Assembly (NCBI GenBank): GCA_025812035.1
Contig: GCA_025812035.1_4719.1
Strand: one strand, 5' to 3'
Source: a phage
DNA length: 64,000 bases
A program made the translations under genes and the position numbers. Every line of letters starts with the position of its first letter. Positions within the stretch are counted from its first letter, which is position 1. This document shows, one piece after another, positions 1 through 54,068 of this stretch. The notes under the pieces are model-generated. The model did not search any database. It was given only the letters and a program-made list of their open reading frames with translations, and had not been told where the DNA came from.

Positions 1-1665
1 TGCCCAACCGGTTTGTTCCCAGCTACCAGACAGAACACGATCGATGATTTCGTGACGAGCGACAACACGCTGAGACATCGACATATCGGTACGGTCGAAG
101 CTGTCTTCCCATGCTTCTACGGTATCCGGGTTAGTGATGTTCATCATGTACAGATCGTCCATATCGCGAATATCGTGACGGTTACCATCCTGGTGGTTGT
201 AGTGACCCAGCGGGATACGGTTACCGGTAGCGTAGACCAGCGGTTGACCGTATTGATATTTCTTGCTGAAGCAGCCCAGGGTAGTATCATCGAAGGCACG
301 GAAGAGTGCTTTGTAACCTTCAGAGACTTCCCGAACATCAGCCTCAACATTACCCGTATAGATCTTCTCAGCCGCCGGGATCATACGCAACAGCCAGCTG
401 TATTCGCCTTCTTCCGGCACGTCGATAGAAATCAGCAGGGACGGATACAGTACCTGTTGCAGGAACTTGTAAATCTGCTCATTGGTTTGAGTAGACAGAT
501 CCAGCGGTGCGGTAACTTCCGGATCCAGCACCATCGCCAGAGCACCCGGGTTATGCGGACCGATACCACGAGCAGCGTTGCTGATTAAAGACTGCGCCCA
601 TGCCATGCCGCTGTTCAGCGTAGCAATGGTACCAATCAGACCCAATACAAAAGTATTCGGTGTGAATGCGTCCAGCTCCAGCGGGTAAGCGCTGGTCATC
701 ACGTAACGCGGCTGGTATTGTACAGTCGGCGGTACCGGATAACCGTTAACCAGAACAGGACCTTGGTTGAAGGTCGGGTTCTGCGGGCTGTAGGTCAGGT
801 CGATATAGCCGGTAGTTGCGACCAGACGCTGCTGGCTATCGTAATCGCTCATCGCTTGACGGATGCGGTTAGAGATAGTTACAGTGATGTCGGAACGCAC
901 TGGGTTACCAACGATATCGCTGTCCTGCATACCGCTGGTGTTATACTGAACGCTGCTGATCGGCTGATCGCTTGCCATCATGCCCAGGTTGAACTGCGGC
1001 AGGCCCAGTTTATCACCGAGACGGATTTCGATTGCGGTTTGGATTGCGTTATCTGCAGCAGACAGCAGGGTGGTTGCCAGGTGTGCAGATTCAGCGGTGA
1101 TTTCATTGGTCACCACAGCCAGACCAGCGATACGAACAGTACCATTAGCCTTGCCACCAATAGCCGCATACATTGCCGCCATGACTTCGTTGATGAACGT
1201 GCCGTTCAGGTTATCAACCCAGGTACGCGGTACCAGAATGTTACCATGCGGACCTTGTTCTTCACGACGCGGCAGCGGAGCCAAACCGGCAACCAGCGGA
1301 AGCACATAACCGAAGAAGTGGTTATGATCACCAACTTTCGCACCACTCATAACCACCAGGGTCGGATACGGTACACTGTACTGACCAGGATCGACAGTCA
1401 CCATGATGAAGTCGTCTTTAAAGCCTTTATCTTCCAGTTCTTTTTCCATCAGACGACGGAGGTTCAGTACTTGCTCAGAACCGGTGTTACGGCTAATACG
1501 ACGACTCAGTGTACGGTTGATCGTACGCATCGTATGAGTCACTTTAGGCTGGCCAGCAAAGTCTGCAGCGGTTTCCAGCGCTTCATCTGCACGTTGTGCG
1601 GTGCGGGTTTCAGCTGCACGAATTTCTACATTATCGTTACCGTTTTTACGTACGTCTAAGCCCAT
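1..1665 (-). CDS. Abundant protein, 3' end beyond window (555 codons visible); candidate chimallin-like nuclear shell protein, alternatively major capsid protein
   Basis: Open minus-strand frame from ATG at 1665 to window edge (checked at both ends and mid-gene); RBS AAGAGGAA; preferred-codon bias; early-promoter-like motif ~70 nt upstream. Missed by ORF track (no stop in window). Confidence 0.5.
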   Translation of the reverse strand, partial: MGLDVRKNGNDNVEIRAAETRTAQRADEALETAADFAGQPKVTHTMRTINRTLSRRISRNTGSEQVLNLRRLMEKELEDKGFKDDFIMVTVDPGQYSVPYPTLVVMSGAKVGDHNHFFGYVLPLVAGLAPLPRREEQGPHGNILVPRTWVDNLNGTFINEVMAAMYAAIGGKANGTVRIAGLAVVTNEITAESAHLATTLLSAADNAIQTAIEIRLGDKLGLPQFNLGMMASDQPISSVQYNTSGMQDSDIVGNPVRSDITVTISNRIRQAMSDYDSQQRLVATTGYIDLTYSPQNPTFNQGPVLVNGYPVPPTVQYQPRYVMTSAYPLELDAFTPNTFVLGLIGTIATLNSGMAWAQSLISNAARGIGPHNPGALAMVLDPEVTAPLDLSTQTNEQIYKFLQQVLYPSLLISIDVPEEGEYSWLLRMIPAAEKIYTGNVEADVREVSEGYKALFRAFDDTTLGCFSKKYQYGQPLVYATGNRIPLGHYNHQDGNRHDIRDMDDLYMMNITNPDTVEAWEDSFDRTDMSMSQRVVARHEIIDRVLSGSWEQTGWA

Positions 1666-1727
1666 TTGGGATTCCTCTTTTCTTAAACTTTATTAAATGA
1701 CGTCATTGAATCAGCTTCTACTCGCTC

Positions 1728-1809
1728 ATTCACCTAGGTAATATAACCCTGAAATTTTTTTCAATATTGGTGTAACCGTATTGAACGATATAAACCCCTA
1801 GGTGAATGC
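1728..1809. repeat. 12-bp perfect inverted repeat ATTCACCTAGGT ... ACCTAGGTGAAT flanking promoter motif A
   Basis: Arms at 1728-1739 and 1798-1809, 58-bp spacer. Confidence 0.4.
1735..1770 (-). promoter_or_regulatory. early-promoter-like motif, copy A
   Basis: Plus strand TAGGTAATATAACCCTGAAATTTTTTTCAATATTGG; minus-sense TATATTACCTA preceded by A-tract; ~70 nt upstream of the 1665 start. Confidence 0.4.
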
Positions 1810-1919
1810 TGCCGAGAAGCAACATTCTTTCTACATATAATCAGGATATGTCTGTAAACTTTTACTTCTCTTATTGAGAGTAACATCATATCCGCTTACT
1901 ACCTTCTTACGGAGTTCGT

Positions 1920-3014
1920 ATGTTTCGTGTTTTAAATAACCTCCCGCGAACATCATCGGGTGTGCAACCCATCCCTCAGAAAGACTATCTGATACGCGAA
2001 GTTCAAAGAAACCTACAAACAATCCAGAACCACTATCAGGGTTTTACCTTCGCGGTTCAGAGTGATCACATCCTTGCGTTGCTGCTCGCACAGCTCCCTA
2101 TGAGATACGACATCTCTGTACAAACTTACTACGACATGATTCTCGATCTTACACCAGAATTGGGTAATCGTGTTAAGTTGACAACATCGAGATACGCAGG
2201 TAAGTTATTCGACGGAGCTTTCTATCCGGGATTGCATGAAGCCATCATCGCAACCGGTGAAAGCCGTCTTATTTCACGGGATGTTCTTGACAACTGGCGT
2301 AATTGGTCACCGGTTAGAATCGTGACGCACCCGTACGCAAATCTTCGTTACATTCCTCTTCACCGAAAACAGGTTGAAGAAGGACGAGGTTTCGCGGTCA
2401 TCATGGTCGATGTACCTTTATTAGCATTACAGTATCGAATGTGGTCTTTGGTCATGGGCCATAACGTCGACGGTAAATGGGTGGTTAAAGAACCGGTTAC
2501 GAGCTTCCTTGCGAGTTTTCCATTGGTTAACGCATTATACTCACACAACGATGTTGTCATACGCAACCGTTGTTTGTGGGTACCTCCGGCTAAGAATCCA
2601 CTCAAGTCGCCGATTTACGTTAACGACCTGGATAACGTATTCAGTCAAGTCGTGCTGTCCGTACAACATCATTTATTACGAAGAAGACGAAGCTACACCG
2701 ACATGCTTAAACAGATACCGAGTTTATACGGGGATCAGTACCAAGCAACCCGAATGGGCTACACCGTCGATCTTCGACAAACCCGATGGGCAAGGGATCT
2801 AGGCTGTATGTCATTATGGCAGCAGCTCGTCACACTGCAAAACGTATCTGAAAGCGTCGGGTTCAGCAGTCAAATCGATAATGATCTGTACCGCGCCGCC
2901 GACCGGAGTCTGAAAGAAGGTAGCTGGGAATCCTCTCCGTTACCCGGCGATTTGCGGCGTGAAGTTATCGCACAGGTTGCCGACCTCTTAAAAATTCTTC
3001 CTGCTGGGACATAA
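1920..3014 (+). CDS. hypothetical protein
   Basis: 364-aa ORF, GGAG RBS before ATG 1920, followed by strong hairpin 3016-3070. Confidence 0.6.
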   Translation: MFRVLNNLPRTSSGVQPIPQKDYLIREVQRNLQTIQNHYQGFTFAVQSDHILALLLAQLPMRYDISVQTYYDMILDLTPELGNRVKLTTSRYAGKLFDGAFYPGLHEAIIATGESRLISRDVLDNWRNWSPVRIVTHPYANLRYIPLHRKQVEEGRGFAVIMVDVPLLALQYRMWSLVMGHNVDGKWVVKEPVTSFLASFPLVNALYSHNDVVIRNRCLWVPPAKNPLKSPIYVNDLDNVFSQVVLSVQHHLLRRRRSYTDMLKQIPSLYGDQYQATRMGYTVDLRQTRWARDLGCMSLWQQLVTLQNVSESVGFSSQIDNDLYRAADRSLKEGSWESSPLPGDLRREVIAQVADLLKILPAGT

Positions 3015-20534: not shown

Positions 20535-20546
20535 ATAAACTCCTCC

Positions 20547-20573
20547 GATGGAGGGTGCCGAGCACCCTCCATC
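20547..20573 (-). terminator. hairpin GATGGAGGGTGC-CGA-GCACCCTCCATC (attenuator-like)
   Basis: 12-bp stem between stop of 20585-22318 and RBS of terL; no clear U-tract. Confidence 0.3.
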
Positions 20574-20584
20574 GTTGTATTACT

Positions 20585-30095: not shown

Positions 30096-30575
30096 TCAGT
30101 CTTTCAGCAGCTCAGCTGCATACGCACTGATATTGTCGCGGATATGCTTAACCTGAGTTGTTGGGAAAGATTTCTTATACGCGGTGGTCAGACGTCCGTA
30201 AACCTGTTTCTTCTCGTTAGAGCCGAAACCAACTTCAGCGCTACGTTGAATTGTTGCAGACACAACGTCTTTACCCAGCGGCAGTGTAACAGAAACAACG
30301 TCAACCTGCTTGTTATCCGCCATGAACTGCGCACCAACGCGACCAACTGCCAGGCCGTGAGCCAGACCGATATCAGTGGTCAGCTTCTGCGCTTTTTCCA
30401 GGATTTCTTTTTCTTCCGGTGTTACCAGAGTACCCAGGAAATCACTGCCTAACTTCTGGCTACCGGATTCGTCCAGTTTGATACCAGCTGCGATTTTATC
30501 AGAAAGCGCCTGAACTTCCGGACGTACGTTAGAAGTGGTTTCAGTTGCTACGGTGGTTTCTACAGCTTCAGACAT
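30096..30575 (-). CDS. acidic hypothetical protein (likely early, abundant)
   Basis: 159 aa, TGGAGT RBS, preferred-codon bias; early-promoter-like motif copy B ~120 nt upstream. Confidence 0.55.
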   Translation of the reverse strand: MSEAVETTVATETTSNVRPEVQALSDKIAAGIKLDESGSQKLGSDFLGTLVTPEEKEILEKAQKLTTDIGLAHGLAVGRVGAQFMADNKQVDVVSVTLPLGKDVVSATIQRSAEVGFGSNEKKQVYGRLTTAYKKSFPTTQVKHIRDNISAYAAELLKD

Positions 30576-30694
30576 GTTAATACTCCAATTAGTTTTTTCG
30601 ATCGATCAAAAGGATAAAATCAGAAGATTCTTTCTTCATAGGGAAAACACAAGTCGGTTAAGGTTTACTTCTCAAACTCCTTGCGTTCTATCAG

Positions 30695-30730
30695 TTAGGT
30701 AATATAGACCTCAACTTTTTTCCAATAATG
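30695..30730 (-). promoter_or_regulatory. early-promoter-like motif, copy B
   Basis: TTAGGTAATATAGACCTCAACTTTTTTCCAATAATGC; lies between two minus genes, which fixes the functional strand as minus. Confidence 0.4.
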
Positions 30731-31596: not shown

Positions 31597-31638
31597 ACGG
31601 CATAAAAAGTACCTCCTTACCCACATGGGTAAGGAGGT
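31597..31638 (-). terminator. hairpin plus U-tract with TATGCCGT module
   Basis: 12-bp stem ACCTCCTTACCC/GGGTAAGGAGGT; minus-sense followed by CTTTTTATGCCGT. Confidence 0.55.
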
Positions 31639-52279: not shown

Positions 52280-52792
52280 TTAAACTTCTTCGTTTTCTGA
52301 ACCTAATGATTCAGCATCTGGATCGTCAACAGGAATTGTTGCATCAAAATACCGTTTCGTGTGCGTGGTTGTATATCCTACGCTATCTGTGATGGAAATC
52401 GTAAACGTGACTTCTCTCGCACGGATTAAGCGTAGTTTATTCATGAAGTTACGGAACGGCATCGATCCCCGATTCAACTCCTTAATGACGTTTCCTCGAA
52501 TACTGGAAATGTCTTTATTCGTCTTATCAGGATGTCGTTTCTTCACATCACGCATGTGTCGGGTAATATACGAATTGAGCTGATTTGCGCCGATCCCTCT
52601 CTCCGTATAAATCTGCAACAGGAACTCCGTAAGGAAATCCTGTCTACCCGTAGGCGTCCAGAAATTGTTACCGTGATTGTAGTTAGTCGCTCGTCCTCGA
52701 TTGCTTTGAGGACTTTCATCATCGTTTTCGTCGCGGCGCTTAAGCGGATTAATGCGTGCGCGAAAAGAGACTTCATTATATTTATCTATCAT
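52280..52792 (-). CDS. hypothetical protein
   Basis: Start trimmed to ATG 52792 (ATGA overlap with upstream stop). Confidence 0.45.
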   Translation of the reverse strand: MIDKYNEVSFRARINPLKRRDENDDESPQSNRGRATNYNHGNNFWTPTGRQDFLTEFLLQIYTERGIGANQLNSYITRHMRDVKKRHPDKTNKDISSIRGNVIKELNRGSMPFRNFMNKLRLIRAREVTFTISITDSVGYTTTHTKRYFDATIPVDDPDAESLGSENEEV

Positions 52793-53304
52793 AATACACC
52801 AGTGTACTGACTGAGTGCGAAGGTTAGGAGTTCGCAACAGTCTCTCGCTAGTTTCCTTGTTTTGCGTAATCCATAAGCCGCATCCAAATCGTCACGTTCC
52901 GCCAGCGCGTCTAACCACGTCGCAAGTATGCGTCCATACTCGATAACGTCACGCATGAGAACGTCGAACTGGATAACACGACCATCGGCATCAGCAAGCC
53001 AACGATTGAATGTGATTTGTGGTGCTAGTATTGCATATGTTCTCTCCTCTAATGCTATTACGTTTATGTTGCCTTCGTTATCGAACGCTTGATGCCAACG
53101 GCGAAGGTCAAGCATCAGCGACTCAGCGTCCATATACCACAACGGTAAATACGTTTTACGTGCAACGCGTATATCGTAGATGTTGTGAACCCAAGACGTT
53201 GTTTTGTAAAGCAACAAGAGTTCGTTTAACCGTTGCCTATCGTCTTGAAACGTCTTCCTTTTATACCGTTGGAATGCACGCCTCAAGAAAAAGCGATGTA
53301 ACAT
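52789..53304 (-). CDS. hypothetical protein (likely early)
   Basis: 171 aa, TAGGTGA RBS; early-promoter-like motif copy C ~90 nt upstream. Confidence 0.5.
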   Translation of the reverse strand: MLHRFFLRRAFQRYKRKTFQDDRQRLNELLLLYKTTSWVHNIYDIRVARKTYLPLWYMDAESLMLDLRRWHQAFDNEGNINVIALEERTYAILAPQITFNRWLADADGRVIQFDVLMRDVIEYGRILATWLDALAERDDLDAAYGLRKTRKLARDCCELLTFALSQYTGVL

Positions 53305-53392
53305 GGCATCACCTATGTATCATTCTTGCAGGCATCAATGAAACCATCACAAGAAGGTAACGTTTTACGTCGCCTTCATGACAGTCATCATG

Positions 53393-53425
53393 AAGGTAAT
53401 ATAGTCCTGTTATTTTTTTCAATCC
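53393..53425 (-). promoter_or_regulatory. early-promoter-like motif, copy C
   Basis: AAGGTAATATAGTCCTGTTATTTTTTTCAATCC; overlapped by 9-bp inverted repeat CCTTCATGA/TCATGAAGG (53373-53396). Confidence 0.4.
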
Positions 53426-53438
53426 GGAGAATGTAATA

Positions 53439-54068
53439 ATGAGCGAATACGGTGTTGTCCCTGTAGATGATGAACCGCAAGAGGCACCCGATAAATTCGA
53501 GGTCCGCCTTGACGAAACCCGCAATATCCGTCAACGATTTATTCAACGCCTTGAAATGCTGTTGGATAGCGAATTCAAGGAATTTGAGCATAATCCTGGC
53601 GCTGATAACAAAGCCATCGTCGACGTCGAAAACGTCGACCGTATAGGTAAGCTGCTATTGAAATCGTTGGGTGATAACGATAAAGTCGACCTAACGCTGA
53701 AACGTATCAGTGCTGACCAGGCCATGAACGACAGCGCATTGAAAACAGCACAAGCCCTAACCGAAACCATGCTGCGCCGCTTAGGTCAGTTGGATCAACA
53801 TCCTCTCGCAGCAGGGGCTGTTTATGAAGGCGAAGTCGTGAAGCCAGTCACGCCTGAGGAACGCGATCGTCGACTTGGTTTTGCGTCATTGGAAGAGTTC
53901 AATAGCAAAGAGTTCTCACCAGGCATTCTCATCCAGGGACGTGTTGAAGAAACCAGTGACGCTTTCTATGCTAGAATGGCTCAACTGACGGCGTCGGTTC
54001 GTGAGGAGGTATCTCAGAAGATGGCTGCAGATCATCAGTCTTCGGAGGCGTCACACGAGGAGGAATAA
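53439..54068 (+). CDS. acidic hypothetical protein
   Basis: 209 aa, GGAG RBS; acidic C-terminal tail. Confidence 0.5.
   Translation: MSEYGVVPVDDEPQEAPDKFEVRLDETRNIRQRFIQRLEMLLDSEFKEFEHNPGADNKAIVDVENVDRIGKLLLKSLGDNDKVDLTLKRISADQAMNDSALKTAQALTETMLRRLGQLDQHPLAAGAVYEGEVVKPVTPEERDRRLGFASLEEFNSKEFSPGILIQGRVEETSDAFYARMAQLTASVREEVSQKMAADHQSSEASHEEE

What the first reader, a model, noticed from the sequence alone, without database searches (positions are those of the whole stretch)
1728..1809. 12-bp perfect inverted repeat brackets promoter copy A; a 9-bp repeat overlaps copy C
ATTCACCTAGGT (1728-1739) and ACCTAGGTGAAT (1798-1809) flank the motif in the divergent region. At copy C, CCTTCATGA/TCATGAAGG (53373-53396) overlaps the motif's 5' edge. 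These could be operator sites for a dimeric regulator or form structure in leaders of the divergent transcripts.
Basis: seen in the sequence. Interest (0 to 1): 0.45.

Follow-up and report, generated by a model that had tools for sequence, protein, structure and literature searches.

The report
Inverted repeat around chimallin early promoter
The 12-base inverted repeat is real, but one arm is simply the start-site part of the promoter that a Goslar-like jumbo phage uses to switch on its nuclear-shell (chimallin) gene, and the other arm varies among related phages, so the repeat itself is probably incidental rather than a regulator binding site.

Summary
The window is a Goslar-like nucleus-forming jumbo phage of E. 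coli. A perfect 12-bp inverted repeat exists, one base off the stated coordinates: CATTCACCTAGG 1727-1738 and CCTAGGTGAATG 1797-1808, 58 nt apart. The 9-bp repeat at 53373-53396 is exactly as described.

The "promoter motif" works on the minus strand. It is the virion-RNA-polymerase early promoter type (TA[T/C]ATTAC, 6 nt, then G+1). Goslar has 12 copies, all on the minus strand. Copy A drives chimallin, with the start site inferred at 1731.

- **Proximal arm:** it covers -7..+5 of that promoter and is invariant in 9 genomes.
- **Distal arm:** it lies at -77..-66 and varies at 3 of 12 positions. The repeat is perfect in only 2 of 9 genomes and 10/12 in Goslar and four others.
- **Other promoters:** no other early promoter has such an upstream partner.
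- **Chance:** random sequence gives 0.34 such repeats per window.

The operator idea is not supported. The early chimallin mRNA cannot contain both arms. An RNA helix in a longer, unproven chimallin-sense leader is not excluded, because every substitution is wobble-compatible on that strand.

By-product: 9 of 12 predicted early mRNAs begin with a stem-loop exactly at +1. Interest is low to moderate.

The parts
1727..1738 (.). Proximal arm of the 12-bp inverted repeat (+ strand CATTCACCTAGG; chimallin-sense CCTAGGTGAATG). It covers -7..+5 of the chimallin early promoter.
   Evidence: sequence and repeat. (the promoter consensus extends through YTwnrT-G+1-A). Invariant in 9 genomes.
1797..1808 (.). 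Distal arm (+ strand CCTAGGTGAATG; chimallin-sense CATTCACCTAGG), at -77..-66 of the inferred early start site.
   Evidence: Polymorphic at 1799, 1803 and 1807; all changes are A/G on the chimallin-sense strand. The repeat is perfect only in the window and L011.
1732..1769 (-). Virion-RNAP-type early promoter of chimallin (copy A): CAATATTGAAAAAAATTTCAGGGT TATATTAC CTAGGT, with the inferred start site G at 1731.
   Evidence: PWM scan of Goslar: 12 sites at 30.8-59.2 bits, next best 10.9, all on the minus strand. Same layout as AR9 TATATTAT-(6N)-G+1 and the phiKZ/phiR1-37 rule (PMC5312081). No variable column in 1727-1768.
1708..1731 (-). H2: predicted 5'-terminal stem-loop of the early chimallin mRNA, GAAUGAGCGAGUAGAAGCUGAUUC, starting at the inferred +1.
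   Evidence: -7.4 kcal/mol, z -4.3. Part of a genome-wide pattern. The only variable sites, 1718 and 1720, lie in the loop.
1804..1827 (-). H1: conserved chimallin-sense hairpin GAAUGUUGCUUCUCGGCAGCAUUC. Its last 5 nt (CAUUC) are the outer part of the distal arm.
   Evidence: -11.7 kcal/mol and z -5.7 on the minus strand, against -6.4 on the plus strand. In 1804-1827 only position 1807 varies, and that change keeps U-A as U.G.
1666..1731 (-). Inferred 66-nt 5' UTR of the early chimallin mRNA (RBS GAGGA).
   Evidence: The start site is inferred, not measured.
1..1665 (-). Chimallin (nuclear shell protein) gene, first 555 codons. The window cuts off the 3' end.
   Evidence: 96.8% aa identity to Goslar gp246, annotated 'nuclear shell protein'.
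1854..1865 (.). GTAAACTTTTAC, one copy of a palindromic GTAA-N4-TTAC motif inside the invariant block 1828-1866. Candidate non-early promoter or factor site for gp245 and possibly chimallin.
   Evidence: 16 copies in Goslar against 2-6 in shuffles, mostly intergenic. The block has 1 variable column out of 39.
1920..3014 (+). Divergent gene, homologue of Goslar gp245 (hypothetical protein; PHROG 3938, with a weak hit to a virion structural protein family).
30693..30730 (-). Early promoter copy B, inferred start site 30692. It drives the minus-strand gene 30096-30575 (Goslar gp214).
53390..53427 (-). Early promoter copy C, inferred start site 53389. It drives the minus-strand gene 52789-53304 (Goslar gp200).
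53373..53396 (.). 9-bp inverted repeat CCTTCATGA/TCATGAAGG with a 6-nt spacer. It spans -7..+17 of early promoter C.
   Evidence: In the early mRNA only GA of the first arm is transcribed, and the leader folds into a different 5'-terminal hairpin. As plus-sense RNA it forms a 9-bp hairpin (68-nt segment -18 kcal/mol, z -3.8). One relative carries an A>G change that is wobble-compatible on the minus strand.
53357..53368 (.). GTAACGTTTTAC, another GTAA-N4-TTAC copy, next to the copy-C repeat.

Best explanation
The repeat is a by-product of two functional elements that both read on the chimallin-sense (minus) strand. It is not an element in its own right.

Shown: the 'promoter motif' is a minus-strand motif, ..TTCAsGnn TA[T/C]ATTAC YTwnrT G A.., present 12 times in Goslar, always on the minus strand. 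In 11 of 12 cases it lies directly upstream of an annotated gene start. Copy A sits 66-100 nt upstream of the chimallin start codon.

Inferred, by the AR9/phiKZ rule of a conserved AT-rich element followed 6 nt later by G+1: the injected virion RNA polymerase binds TATATTAC at -14..-7 and starts at G1731. The proximal arm (-7..+5) is then the start-site segment of the promoter. Its transcribed half (GAAUG) opens a 5'-terminal stem-loop (H2, 1731->1708). By analogy with known 5' stem-loops, this would shield the early mRNA's 5' end from RNase E and RppH.

The distal arm (-77..-66) is the 3' end of a second conserved chimallin-sense hairpin (H1, 1827->1804) plus ACCTAGG. H1 and H2 share GAAUG...AUUC ends, so 5 of the 12 bp are complementary automatically.

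The full 12-bp complementarity is not maintained in relatives. I therefore judge it to be not under selection as a DNA repeat. It may be the residue of an old inverted duplication of the start-site-plus-hairpin module. It is not an operator, and it cannot form in the early chimallin mRNA.
For: - Genome identity and gene map.
- Motif orientation and consensus: all 12 sites are on the minus strand, T(-1)G(+1) is invariant, and scores drop from 30.8 bits to 10.9 for the next-best hit. Gene starts lie downstream.
- Start-site rule from AR9, phiKZ and phiR1-37 (PMC5312081, PMC7598289). The same TATATTAC-6N-G lies upstream of chimallin in RAY, Eowyn and RSL2.
- The proximal arm and the promoter are invariant. 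The distal arm varies at 3 of 12 columns. The repeat is 12/12 in 2 genomes, 11/12 in 2 and 10/12 in 5.
- No upstream partner exists at the other 11 early promoters.
- Chance expectation is 0.34 per window, and 27% of shuffles have at least one.
- No significant complementarity exists outside the 12 bp.
- 5'-terminal hairpins: +1 is the first paired nucleotide in 9 of 12 early transcripts, against 28% of control TGA positions (P = 9e-4), and mean z is -1.23 against -0.16.
- In a modelled long leader, the arms pair with probability of only 0.01-0.03 in Goslar-type sequences.
Against: - Within the intergenic region a 12-bp match is unusual (P about 0.005), and two of the window's three CCTAGG sites are in the arms.
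- The most divergent genome, L014, has A at both 1803 and 1807. The ancestor was therefore probably 11-12/12, so the repeat is old rather than a recent accident.
- All 5 transition-polymorphic sites in 1732-1840 are paired and wobble-compatible in the window's own chimallin-sense centroid fold (P about 0.05 given that the sites are paired). The 3 other variable sites in 1700-1840 are unpaired.
- Minus-sense folding energy is kept at -41 to -43.5 kcal/mol in all 9 genomes, while plus-sense energy decays from -38.5 to -29.
- The region 1727-1866 is far more conserved than third codon positions: 6 of 140 columns vary, against 37-47%. Something beyond the early promoter is therefore constrained there.
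- No start site has been measured.
Confidence: 0.5

Rival explanations
1. RNA helix in a longer chimallin leader. A second, non-early promoter in the invariant block 1828-1866 would produce a chimallin-sense transcript containing both arms. In it, ACCUAGG (1803->1797) pairs with CCUAGGU (1738->1732) as a 7-bp helix stacked between hairpins H1 and H2, looping out the 58-nt early-promoter sequence. The junction would stabilise or process the middle/late chimallin mRNA.
For: - RNAalifold and the single-sequence centroid fold both give H1, a closing helix and H2.
- 181-nt chimallin-sense segment 1840->1660: z -2.4.
- All five substitutions in predicted stems are A-U<->G.U or G-C<->G.U on this strand, and none breaks a pair.
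- Minus-sense energy is conserved while plus-sense energy decays.
- H1 is twice as stable on the minus strand as on the plus strand.
- phiKZ chimallin (PHIKZ054) has both an early primary start site and a middle-type secondary start site (PMC8244752).
- RAY and Eowyn carry a second promoter-like TATAT element 75-100 nt upstream of the chimallin early promoter.
Against: - No such transcript or promoter has been shown.
- The sequence upstream of H1 matches no repeated motif, and the early-promoter PWM found no site there: no hit of 8 bits or more besides the 14 listed.
- No pair changes on both sides, so there is no true covariation.
- Arm pairing probability is 0.3-0.76 in the window and L011, but only 0.01-0.03 in Goslar, L002, L004 and L012, where another fold is 2.7 kcal/mol better.
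- With only 3 variable sites in the arm, the chance that all are wobble-compatible is about 0.16.
Confidence: 0.28
2. Two operator sites for a dimeric or tetrameric DNA-binding regulator. Each arm holds a CCTAGG palindrome. The centres are 64 bp apart, about 6 helical turns, so a protein bound at both could loop out and shut off the chimallin early promoter.
For: - Each arm has a palindromic core: ACCTAGGT in the proximal arm and CCTAGG in the distal arm.
- The 64-bp spacing puts the two sites on the same face of the helix (arithmetic).
- CCTAGG is rare in the window.
- One arm covers the start site, a classic repressor position.
Against: - The distal site is the least conserved stretch of the region, and L014 has CCTGGG.
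- The proximal CCTAGG is already explained by the promoter consensus YTwnrT; gp040's early promoter also has CCTAGGTGA but no partner.
- No paired arrangement exists at the other 11 early promoters.
- No analogous bracket was found upstream of chimallin in PhiPA3, Eowyn, RSL2 or Noxifer. The one in RAY is explained by Shine-Dalgarno-like AGAGGT on both strands.
Confidence: 0.08
3. Divergent second promoter. The distal arm would be the start-site segment of a degenerate, oppositely oriented copy of the early promoter (GTATTGAA-CGA-TATAAACC-CCTAGGT-G on the + strand) that drives gp245.
For: - The + strand at 1778-1808 shares TATTGAA, TATA and CCTAGGTGAATG with the true promoter, followed by a 24-nt hairpin with the same ends.
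Against: - It scores below 8 bits with the early-promoter PWM, against at least 30.8 for real sites.
- TATAAACC matches TATATTAC at 5 of 8 positions with wrong spacing. AR9 data show that one mismatch can kill such a promoter.
- In 6 of 9 genomes (L010 and the Goslar group) the otherwise invariant T(-1) is C, since the + strand reads CCTAGGCGAA.
- All 12 real sites are on the minus strand.
- Flank similarity is not significant (P = 0.10 and 0.83).
- gp245 looks like a non-early, possibly structural gene.
Confidence: 0.07
4. DNA hairpin or cruciform used by the virion RNA polymerase, as in phage N4 early promoters.
For: - The repeat overlaps a virion-RNAP promoter.
Against: - N4 promoters use a 5-7 bp stem with a 3-nt loop just upstream of the start site, recognised by a single-subunit enzyme (own knowledge). 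Here the spacer is 58 nt, which disfavours extrusion.
- The polymerase here is multisubunit.
- 11 of 12 promoters lack any such repeat.
Confidence: 0.02

Closest known systems
Virion-RNAP early promoters of phiKZ-like and AR9-like jumbo phages (phiKZ; phiR1-37; AR9 AAATATATATTAT-(6N)-G+1)
   Same: An extended, highly conserved AT-rich element centred near -10 (here TA[T/C]ATTAC). A conserved position 6 nt downstream that is always G (the presumed +1). A small number of copies per genome, all co-oriented with the genes they precede, including chimallin followed by a non-virion RNAP subunit gene.
   Different: The upstream part (TTCAsG, A- or T-runs) and the conserved YTwnrT spacer are specific to the Goslar group. 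No start site or timing has been measured for this phage. None of the papers read here mentions the 12-bp inverted repeat.
5'-terminal stem-loops that stabilise E. coli mRNAs (ompA 5' UTR type; own knowledge: Emory, Bouvet & Belasco 1992)
   Same: In 9 of 12 predicted early transcripts a hairpin begins at the first nucleotide, as required to block 5'-end-dependent RNase E/RppH attack.
   Different: The start sites are inferred and no half-lives were measured. This explains hairpin H2 and partly the copy-C repeat, but not the long-range 12-bp repeat.
Paired, looping operators (lac O1/O3, gal OE/OI, ara O2/I1; own knowledge)
   Same: Two palindrome-containing sites flank a promoter at an in-phase distance of about 64 bp, with one over the start site.
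   Different: The distal site is not conserved. The arrangement does not recur at co-regulated promoters. No candidate regulator is known.
Tandem early and middle promoters of phiKZ chimallin (PHIKZ054; PMC8244752)
   Same: The chimallin gene is served by an early-motif start site, and a second start site upstream would be needed for the RNA-helix reading.
   Different: No second chimallin-sense promoter could be identified here.

Membership tests
Jumbo-phage virion-RNAP early promoter (phiKZ/AR9 type) | Extended, highly conserved AT-rich element centred near -10 | tested here: met
   TA[T/C]ATTAC is invariant in 12 Goslar sites. PWM scores are 30.8-59.2 bits, against 10.9 for the next hit. 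The window's copies are at 1738-1745, 30699-30706 and 53396-53403.
Jumbo-phage virion-RNAP early promoter (phiKZ/AR9 type) | Conserved transcription start 6 nt downstream of the element (G+1 in AR9) | tested here: inconclusive
   At the sequence level, the 7th base after the 8-mer is G in 12 of 12 sites and is preceded by T in 12 of 12. Predicted 5' hairpins begin exactly there in 9 of 12. No 5'-end data exist for this phage.
Jumbo-phage virion-RNAP early promoter (phiKZ/AR9 type) | Over-represented motif located upstream of, and co-oriented with, presumed early operons | tested here: met
   All 12 sites are on the minus strand. 11 lie 39-166 nt upstream of an annotated minus-strand gene start. 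Copy A precedes chimallin and a non-virion RNAP subunit gene.
Jumbo-phage virion-RNAP early promoter (phiKZ/AR9 type) | Transcribed within minutes of infection, without new protein synthesis, by the injected polymerase | not testable with these tools
   Needs a time-course RNA-seq or primer extension with and without chloramphenicol.
Operator pair for a dimeric repressor (with DNA looping) | Both half-sites or sites conserved among close relatives | tested here: not met
   The distal arm varies at 3 of 12 columns. The repeat is 10/12 in 5 of 9 genomes, and L014 has CCTGGG.
Operator pair for a dimeric repressor (with DNA looping) | Same site arrangement recurs at co-regulated promoters | tested here: not met
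   No upstream partner of 8 bp or more exists at the other 11 early promoters. Where partners exist, they lie just downstream, forming transcript hairpins.
Operator pair for a dimeric repressor (with DNA looping) | A cognate DNA-binding protein that footprints on the sites | not tested
   No candidate was identified. The neighbouring proteins have no Pfam hit.
Conserved structured RNA leader | A transcript that contains both arms | not testable with these tools
   The early start site (inferred at 1731) excludes the distal arm. An upstream chimallin-sense start site is hypothetical.
Conserved structured RNA leader | Base pairs supported by compensatory (two-sided) changes | tested here: inconclusive
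   None of the 50 pairs has a two-sided change, and 5 have one-sided wobble changes. All cells are paired, but the shuffle control is uninformative. Pairing probability is not conserved across genomes.
5'-terminal stabilising stem-loop | Stem starts within about 0-2 nt of the mRNA 5' end | tested here: met
   This uses inferred start sites. The first paired nucleotide is +1 in 9 of 12 and at most +2 in 11 of 12, against 28% and 33% in controls. It also holds for the chimallin promoters of RAY, Eowyn and RSL2.
5'-terminal stabilising stem-loop | The stem-loop lengthens the mRNA's half-life | not testable with these tools
   Needs decay measurements with and without the stem.
N4-type hairpin promoter | Short DNA hairpin (5-7 bp stem, 3-nt loop) just upstream of the start site | tested here: not met
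   The spacer is 58 nt, and the proximal arm spans the start site.
Any Rfam family | Covariance-model match | tested here: not met
   No match with E <= 1 in 1500-2100 on either strand.

The most novel reading that the evidence does not exclude
The two arms form the closing helix of a conserved three-helix RNA junction (H1, ACCUAGG/CCUAGGU, H2) in a second, longer chimallin mRNA made later in infection from a still unmapped promoter in the invariant block 1828-1866. The early promoter sequence would then sit in the looped-out domain, and the junction would control the stability or processing (for example by RNase III) of the nuclear-shell mRNA. Alongside this, stem-loops starting exactly at +1 would be a general hallmark of virion-RNAP early transcripts across Chimalliviridae.
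Probability: 0.25. Interest if true: 0.5.

Novelty: new member of a known kind. Interest (0 to 1): 0.25.

Why it matters
Chimallin is the first and most critical protein a nucleus-forming phage must make, so its promoter and leader are natural targets for knock-down and for engineering.

This analysis gives three things for the Goslar group: the orientation, the consensus and the likely start site of the early promoters. It shows that the eye-catching repeat is not a good candidate regulatory site.

It also points to two testable features:
- 5'-terminal stem-loops on early mRNAs.
- A strongly conserved 100-bp stretch upstream of the early promoter, containing hairpin H1 and a GTAA-N4-TTAC palindrome.

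If the repeat is incidental, as judged here, the finding itself is ordinary.

Tried and rejected
- **Longer imperfect repeat.** Extending the repeat to about 31-nt arms failed: local alignment of the flanks is not better than shuffles (P = 0.83 downstream, 0.10 upstream).
- **GAACGATA next to the distal arm.** This 8-mer is over-represented (32 copies against 7 expected), but the copies are almost all in coding sequence with no shared context, so it reflects codon usage and is not a motif.
- **Repeated promoter motif upstream of H1.** TTATATGTAGAAAG and CCTGATTATATG have no recurrence in Goslar.
- **Hairpin at a fixed distance from GTAA-N4-TTAC sites.** No consistent pattern was found.
- **Bracketing repeat upstream of chimallin in distant chimalliviruses.** None was found in Eowyn or Noxifer. 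PhiPA3 and RSL2 have unrelated repeats. The RAY pair is explained by Shine-Dalgarno-like AGAGGT on both strands.
- **Upstream hairpins at the other early promoters.** Five of 12 have GC-rich terminators of the upstream operon 40-90 nt upstream. H1 is not of that type: it is not GC-rich and has no U-run or YUAUGC tail.
- **Rfam.** No match.
- **Sigma-70 promoter and intrinsic-terminator scans.** No more hits than in shuffles.
- **Related sequences.** The genome-contig scan found no relative. The viral contigs 18-mer scan for copy C added only one informative variant, and five of the hits are unrelated contigs.
- **Literature.** Searches found no Goslar start-site map and no report of this repeat. 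The TATATTAC text search was uninformative.

Full report
**Observation.** It is CATTCACCTAGG at 1727-1738 and CCTAGGTGAATG at 1797-1808, with 58 nt between the arms. The shared motif has three copies, starting at 1737, 30698 and 53395.

**Context.** The first 6 kb of the window is 93.9% identical to Escherichia phage vB_EcoM_Goslar, a nucleus-forming jumbo phage. The minus-strand gene that starts at 1665 is chimallin, the nuclear shell protein (Goslar gp246). In Goslar a non-virion RNA polymerase subunit gene follows it. The divergent plus-strand gene 1920-3014 is gp245, a hypothetical protein.

**What the motif is.** Read on the minus strand, the motif is ATTGAAAAAAAnnnCAGGnn TATATTAC C.... 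I assembled the whole Goslar genome and scanned it with a matrix built from the exact TATATTAC sites.
- The scan gives 12 sites at 30.8-59.2 bits, with the next hit at 10.9.
- All 12 are on the minus strand.
- The consensus is ..TTCAsGnn TA[T/C]ATTAC YTwnrT G A...
- Eleven sites lie 39-166 nt upstream of an annotated minus-strand gene start.
- Copy B has minus-strand genes on both sides, so the motif cannot be a plus-strand promoter.

The architecture matches what is published for virion-RNA-polymerase early promoters of jumbo phages. These have an AT-rich, highly conserved element centred near -10. In phiKZ and phiR1-37 the start site is 6 nt downstream, and AR9 reads AAATATATATTAT-(6N)-G+1 (PMC7598289, PMC5312081). 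In all 12 Goslar sites the seventh base after the 8-mer is G, preceded by T. The same TATATTAC-6N-G lies upstream of chimallin in the distant phages RAY, Eowyn and RSL2. I therefore infer start sites at 1731 (copy A), 30692 (copy B) and 53389 (copy C), all on the minus strand. These are inferences; I found no 5'-end map for this phage.

**Where the arms fall.** The proximal arm is -7..+5 of the chimallin early promoter, so it belongs to the promoter consensus. Another early promoter, that of gp040, also reads CCTAGGTGA. The distal arm is at -77..-66. The early chimallin mRNA would hold only GAAUG of one arm and nothing of the other, so the repeat cannot be a hairpin in that leader. The only candidate promoter element for gp245 is a GTAA-N4-TTAC palindrome at 1854-1865, inside an invariant block. 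If gp245 transcription starts there, its mRNA begins downstream of both arms.

**Comparison with relatives.** Eight further Goslar-like genomes were found. Their chimallin coding sequences are 88.6-99.1% identical to the window. The proximal arm and the promoter are invariant. The distal arm is polymorphic at 1799, 1803 and 1807:

| Distal arm (chimallin-sense) | Genomes | Match to proximal arm |
|---|---|---|
| CATTCACCTAGG | window, L011 | 12/12 |
| CATTCGCCTAGG | L010 | 11/12 |
| CGTTCGCCTAGG | Goslar, L002, L004, L012, L013 | 10/12 |
| CATTCACCTGGG | L014 | 11/12 |

Across the nine genomes, third codon positions of the flanking genes vary at 37-47% of sites. The stretch 1727-1866 varies at only 6 of 140 sites, and three of those six are in the distal arm. 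The arm is thus the least constrained piece of a strongly constrained region.

**Chance.** Perfect inverted repeats of at least 12 bp with a 3-100 nt spacer occur 3 times in the window, against 0.34 in Markov shuffles. 27% of shuffles have at least one. The other two are short-loop, terminator-like hairpins. Within the intergenic region alone the match is unusual (P about 0.005), but the flanks add nothing.

**A pattern that did emerge.** In Goslar, 4 of 12 early promoters have a perfect inverted repeat of at least 8 bp touching the start site, against 6% of control positions. Their partners lie just downstream, not upstream. I folded the first 40 nt of each predicted early transcript.
- The inferred +1 is the first paired base in 9 of 12, and +1 or +2 in 11 of 12.
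- Controls give 28% and 33% (binomial P = 9e-4 and 4e-5).
- Mean z is -1.23 against -0.16.
- The chimallin promoters of RAY, Eowyn and RSL2 behave the same way.

For chimallin the hairpin is GAAUGAGCGAGUAGAAGCUGAUUC (H2, 1731->1708; -7.4 kcal/mol, z -4.3). Stem-loops at the very 5' end are known to protect E. coli mRNAs from 5'-end-dependent decay (own knowledge). That is the likely role here, but it is untested.

**The distal arm's neighbourhood.** The outer 5 nt of the distal arm (CAUUC) are the 3' end of a second 24-nt chimallin-sense hairpin, H1: GAAUGUUGCUUCUCGGCAGCAUUC (1827->1804). H1 folds at -11.7 kcal/mol (z -5.7) on the minus strand and at -6.4 on the plus strand. It is invariant apart from 1807, where A/G keeps a U-A or U.G pair. 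H1 and H2 share their ends, so 5 of the 12 bp of the repeat follow automatically. The remaining 7 bp (ACCTAGG/CCTAGGT) are unexplained.

**Test of the RNA-helix reading.** If a chimallin-sense transcript started upstream of H1, RNAalifold and the window's own centroid fold both predict H1, a 7-bp ACCUAGG/CCUAGGU helix enclosing the early-promoter sequence, then H2.

In its favour:
- All five transition-polymorphic sites in 1732-1840 are paired and wobble-compatible on this strand, and the other variable sites are unpaired (P about 0.05 given pairing).
- Minus-sense energy is maintained in all genomes while plus-sense energy decays.
- phiKZ chimallin has a second, middle-type start site.

Against it:
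- There is no two-sided covariation.
- No promoter could be identified upstream of H1.
- The arm-arm pairing probability is 0.3-0.76 in the window and L011 but 0.01-0.03 in Goslar-type sequences, where another fold is 2.7 kcal/mol better.

I give this reading about 0.28.

**Test of the operator reading.** The spacing rules out a single dimer. A two-site looping model is geometrically possible, since the CCTAGG centres are 64 bp apart. It fails on conservation of the distal site, on recurrence at other early promoters, and on recurrence in other chimalliviruses. I give it about 0.08. A degenerate divergent promoter scores below threshold and loses the invariant T(-1) in six of the nine genomes, so I give it about 0.07. 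An N4-like DNA hairpin gets about 0.02.

**Copy C.** The 9-bp repeat spans -7..+17 of early promoter C, so only GA of its first arm would be transcribed. The early leader instead folds into a longer 5'-terminal hairpin using the second arm. As plus-sense RNA the repeat forms a clean 9-bp hairpin (68-nt segment -18 kcal/mol, z -3.8). It lies just after another GTAA-N4-TTAC palindrome (53357-53368), upstream of the plus-strand gene 53439-54068. It could therefore belong to that transcript, but this is unresolved. One relative has an A>G change in the second arm that is wobble-compatible on the minus strand.

**Verdict.** The repeat is real. It is best read as a by-product of a virion-RNAP early promoter and start site with its 5' hairpin, plus a neighbouring conserved hairpin (confidence about 0.5). 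A minority possibility is that the inner 7 bp pair in a longer chimallin leader. The promoter is a new member of a known kind. The repeat itself is of low interest, and the +1 hairpins and the conserved upstream block are the more useful leads.

Noticed in passing
window 1854-1865, 5523, 17721, 25906, 31576, 53357 (each the start of a 12-mer); Goslar L005-L009: The palindromic motif GTAA-N4-TTAC occurs 16 times in Goslar, against 2-6 in shuffles. About 12 copies are intergenic, often in divergent regions or upstream of structural or other non-early genes (tail sheath, major head protein, gp022, gp030, DNA polymerase). It is a candidate non-early promoter element or binding site for a dimeric factor.
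   Followed up: partly
Goslar (L005-L009) early promoters; window 1708-1731; 53305-53389 (the 85-nt early leader of copy C): 9 of 12 predicted early transcripts begin with a stem-loop whose first paired base is the inferred +1 G, against 28% of controls (P = 9e-4). The same holds for the chimallin early promoters of RAY, Eowyn and RSL2.
   Followed up: yes
window 1727-1866: This 140-bp stretch has only 6 variable columns across 9 Goslar-like genomes, while third codon positions of the flanking genes vary at 37-47%. The part upstream of the early promoter (hairpin H1 and the block 1828-1866) is therefore under strong constraint that remains unexplained.
   Followed up: partly
Goslar 43266, 49732, 86705, 142800, 160791 (L005-L008): Five of the 12 early promoters lie 40-90 nt downstream of a strong GC-rich CCUCC-type terminator hairpin followed by YUAUGC. 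This resembles the stem-loop-plus-TTAT terminators described for phiKZ.
   Followed up: no
L016 718-735 (RAY); L017 about 1149-1163 (Eowyn): Both phages carry a second TATAT-type promoter-like element (TATATTAT-GTAAGA-G in RAY, TATATCAT-TTTTAC-G in Eowyn) about 75-100 nt upstream of the chimallin early promoter. This hints at tandem promoters for chimallin.
   Followed up: no
window 20546-20574 and 31611-31638: These are the only other perfect inverted repeats of at least 12 bp in the window. Both have 3-5 nt loops and look like intrinsic terminators.
   Followed up: no
window 1696-1707: The palindrome AATGACGTCATT lies in the chimallin 5' UTR just after hairpin H2. ATGACGTCAT occurs at 3 places in Goslar, counted 6 times over both strands against 0.45 expected. 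One of the other copies is about 60 nt upstream of another early promoter, at 142800.
   Followed up: no
L014 (JACXXQ010000003.1), aligned to window 1871-1884: The most divergent relative has a 14-nt deletion in the gp245 leader, just downstream of the GTAAACTTTTAC palindrome. That part of the leader is therefore dispensable.
   Followed up: no
L021, L024, L025, L027, L022 (IMG/VR contigs): Contigs that do not otherwise align with the window share the exact 18-mer CAGGACTATATTACCTTC with early promoter C. This could be chance, or a similar promoter in other phages.
   Followed up: no
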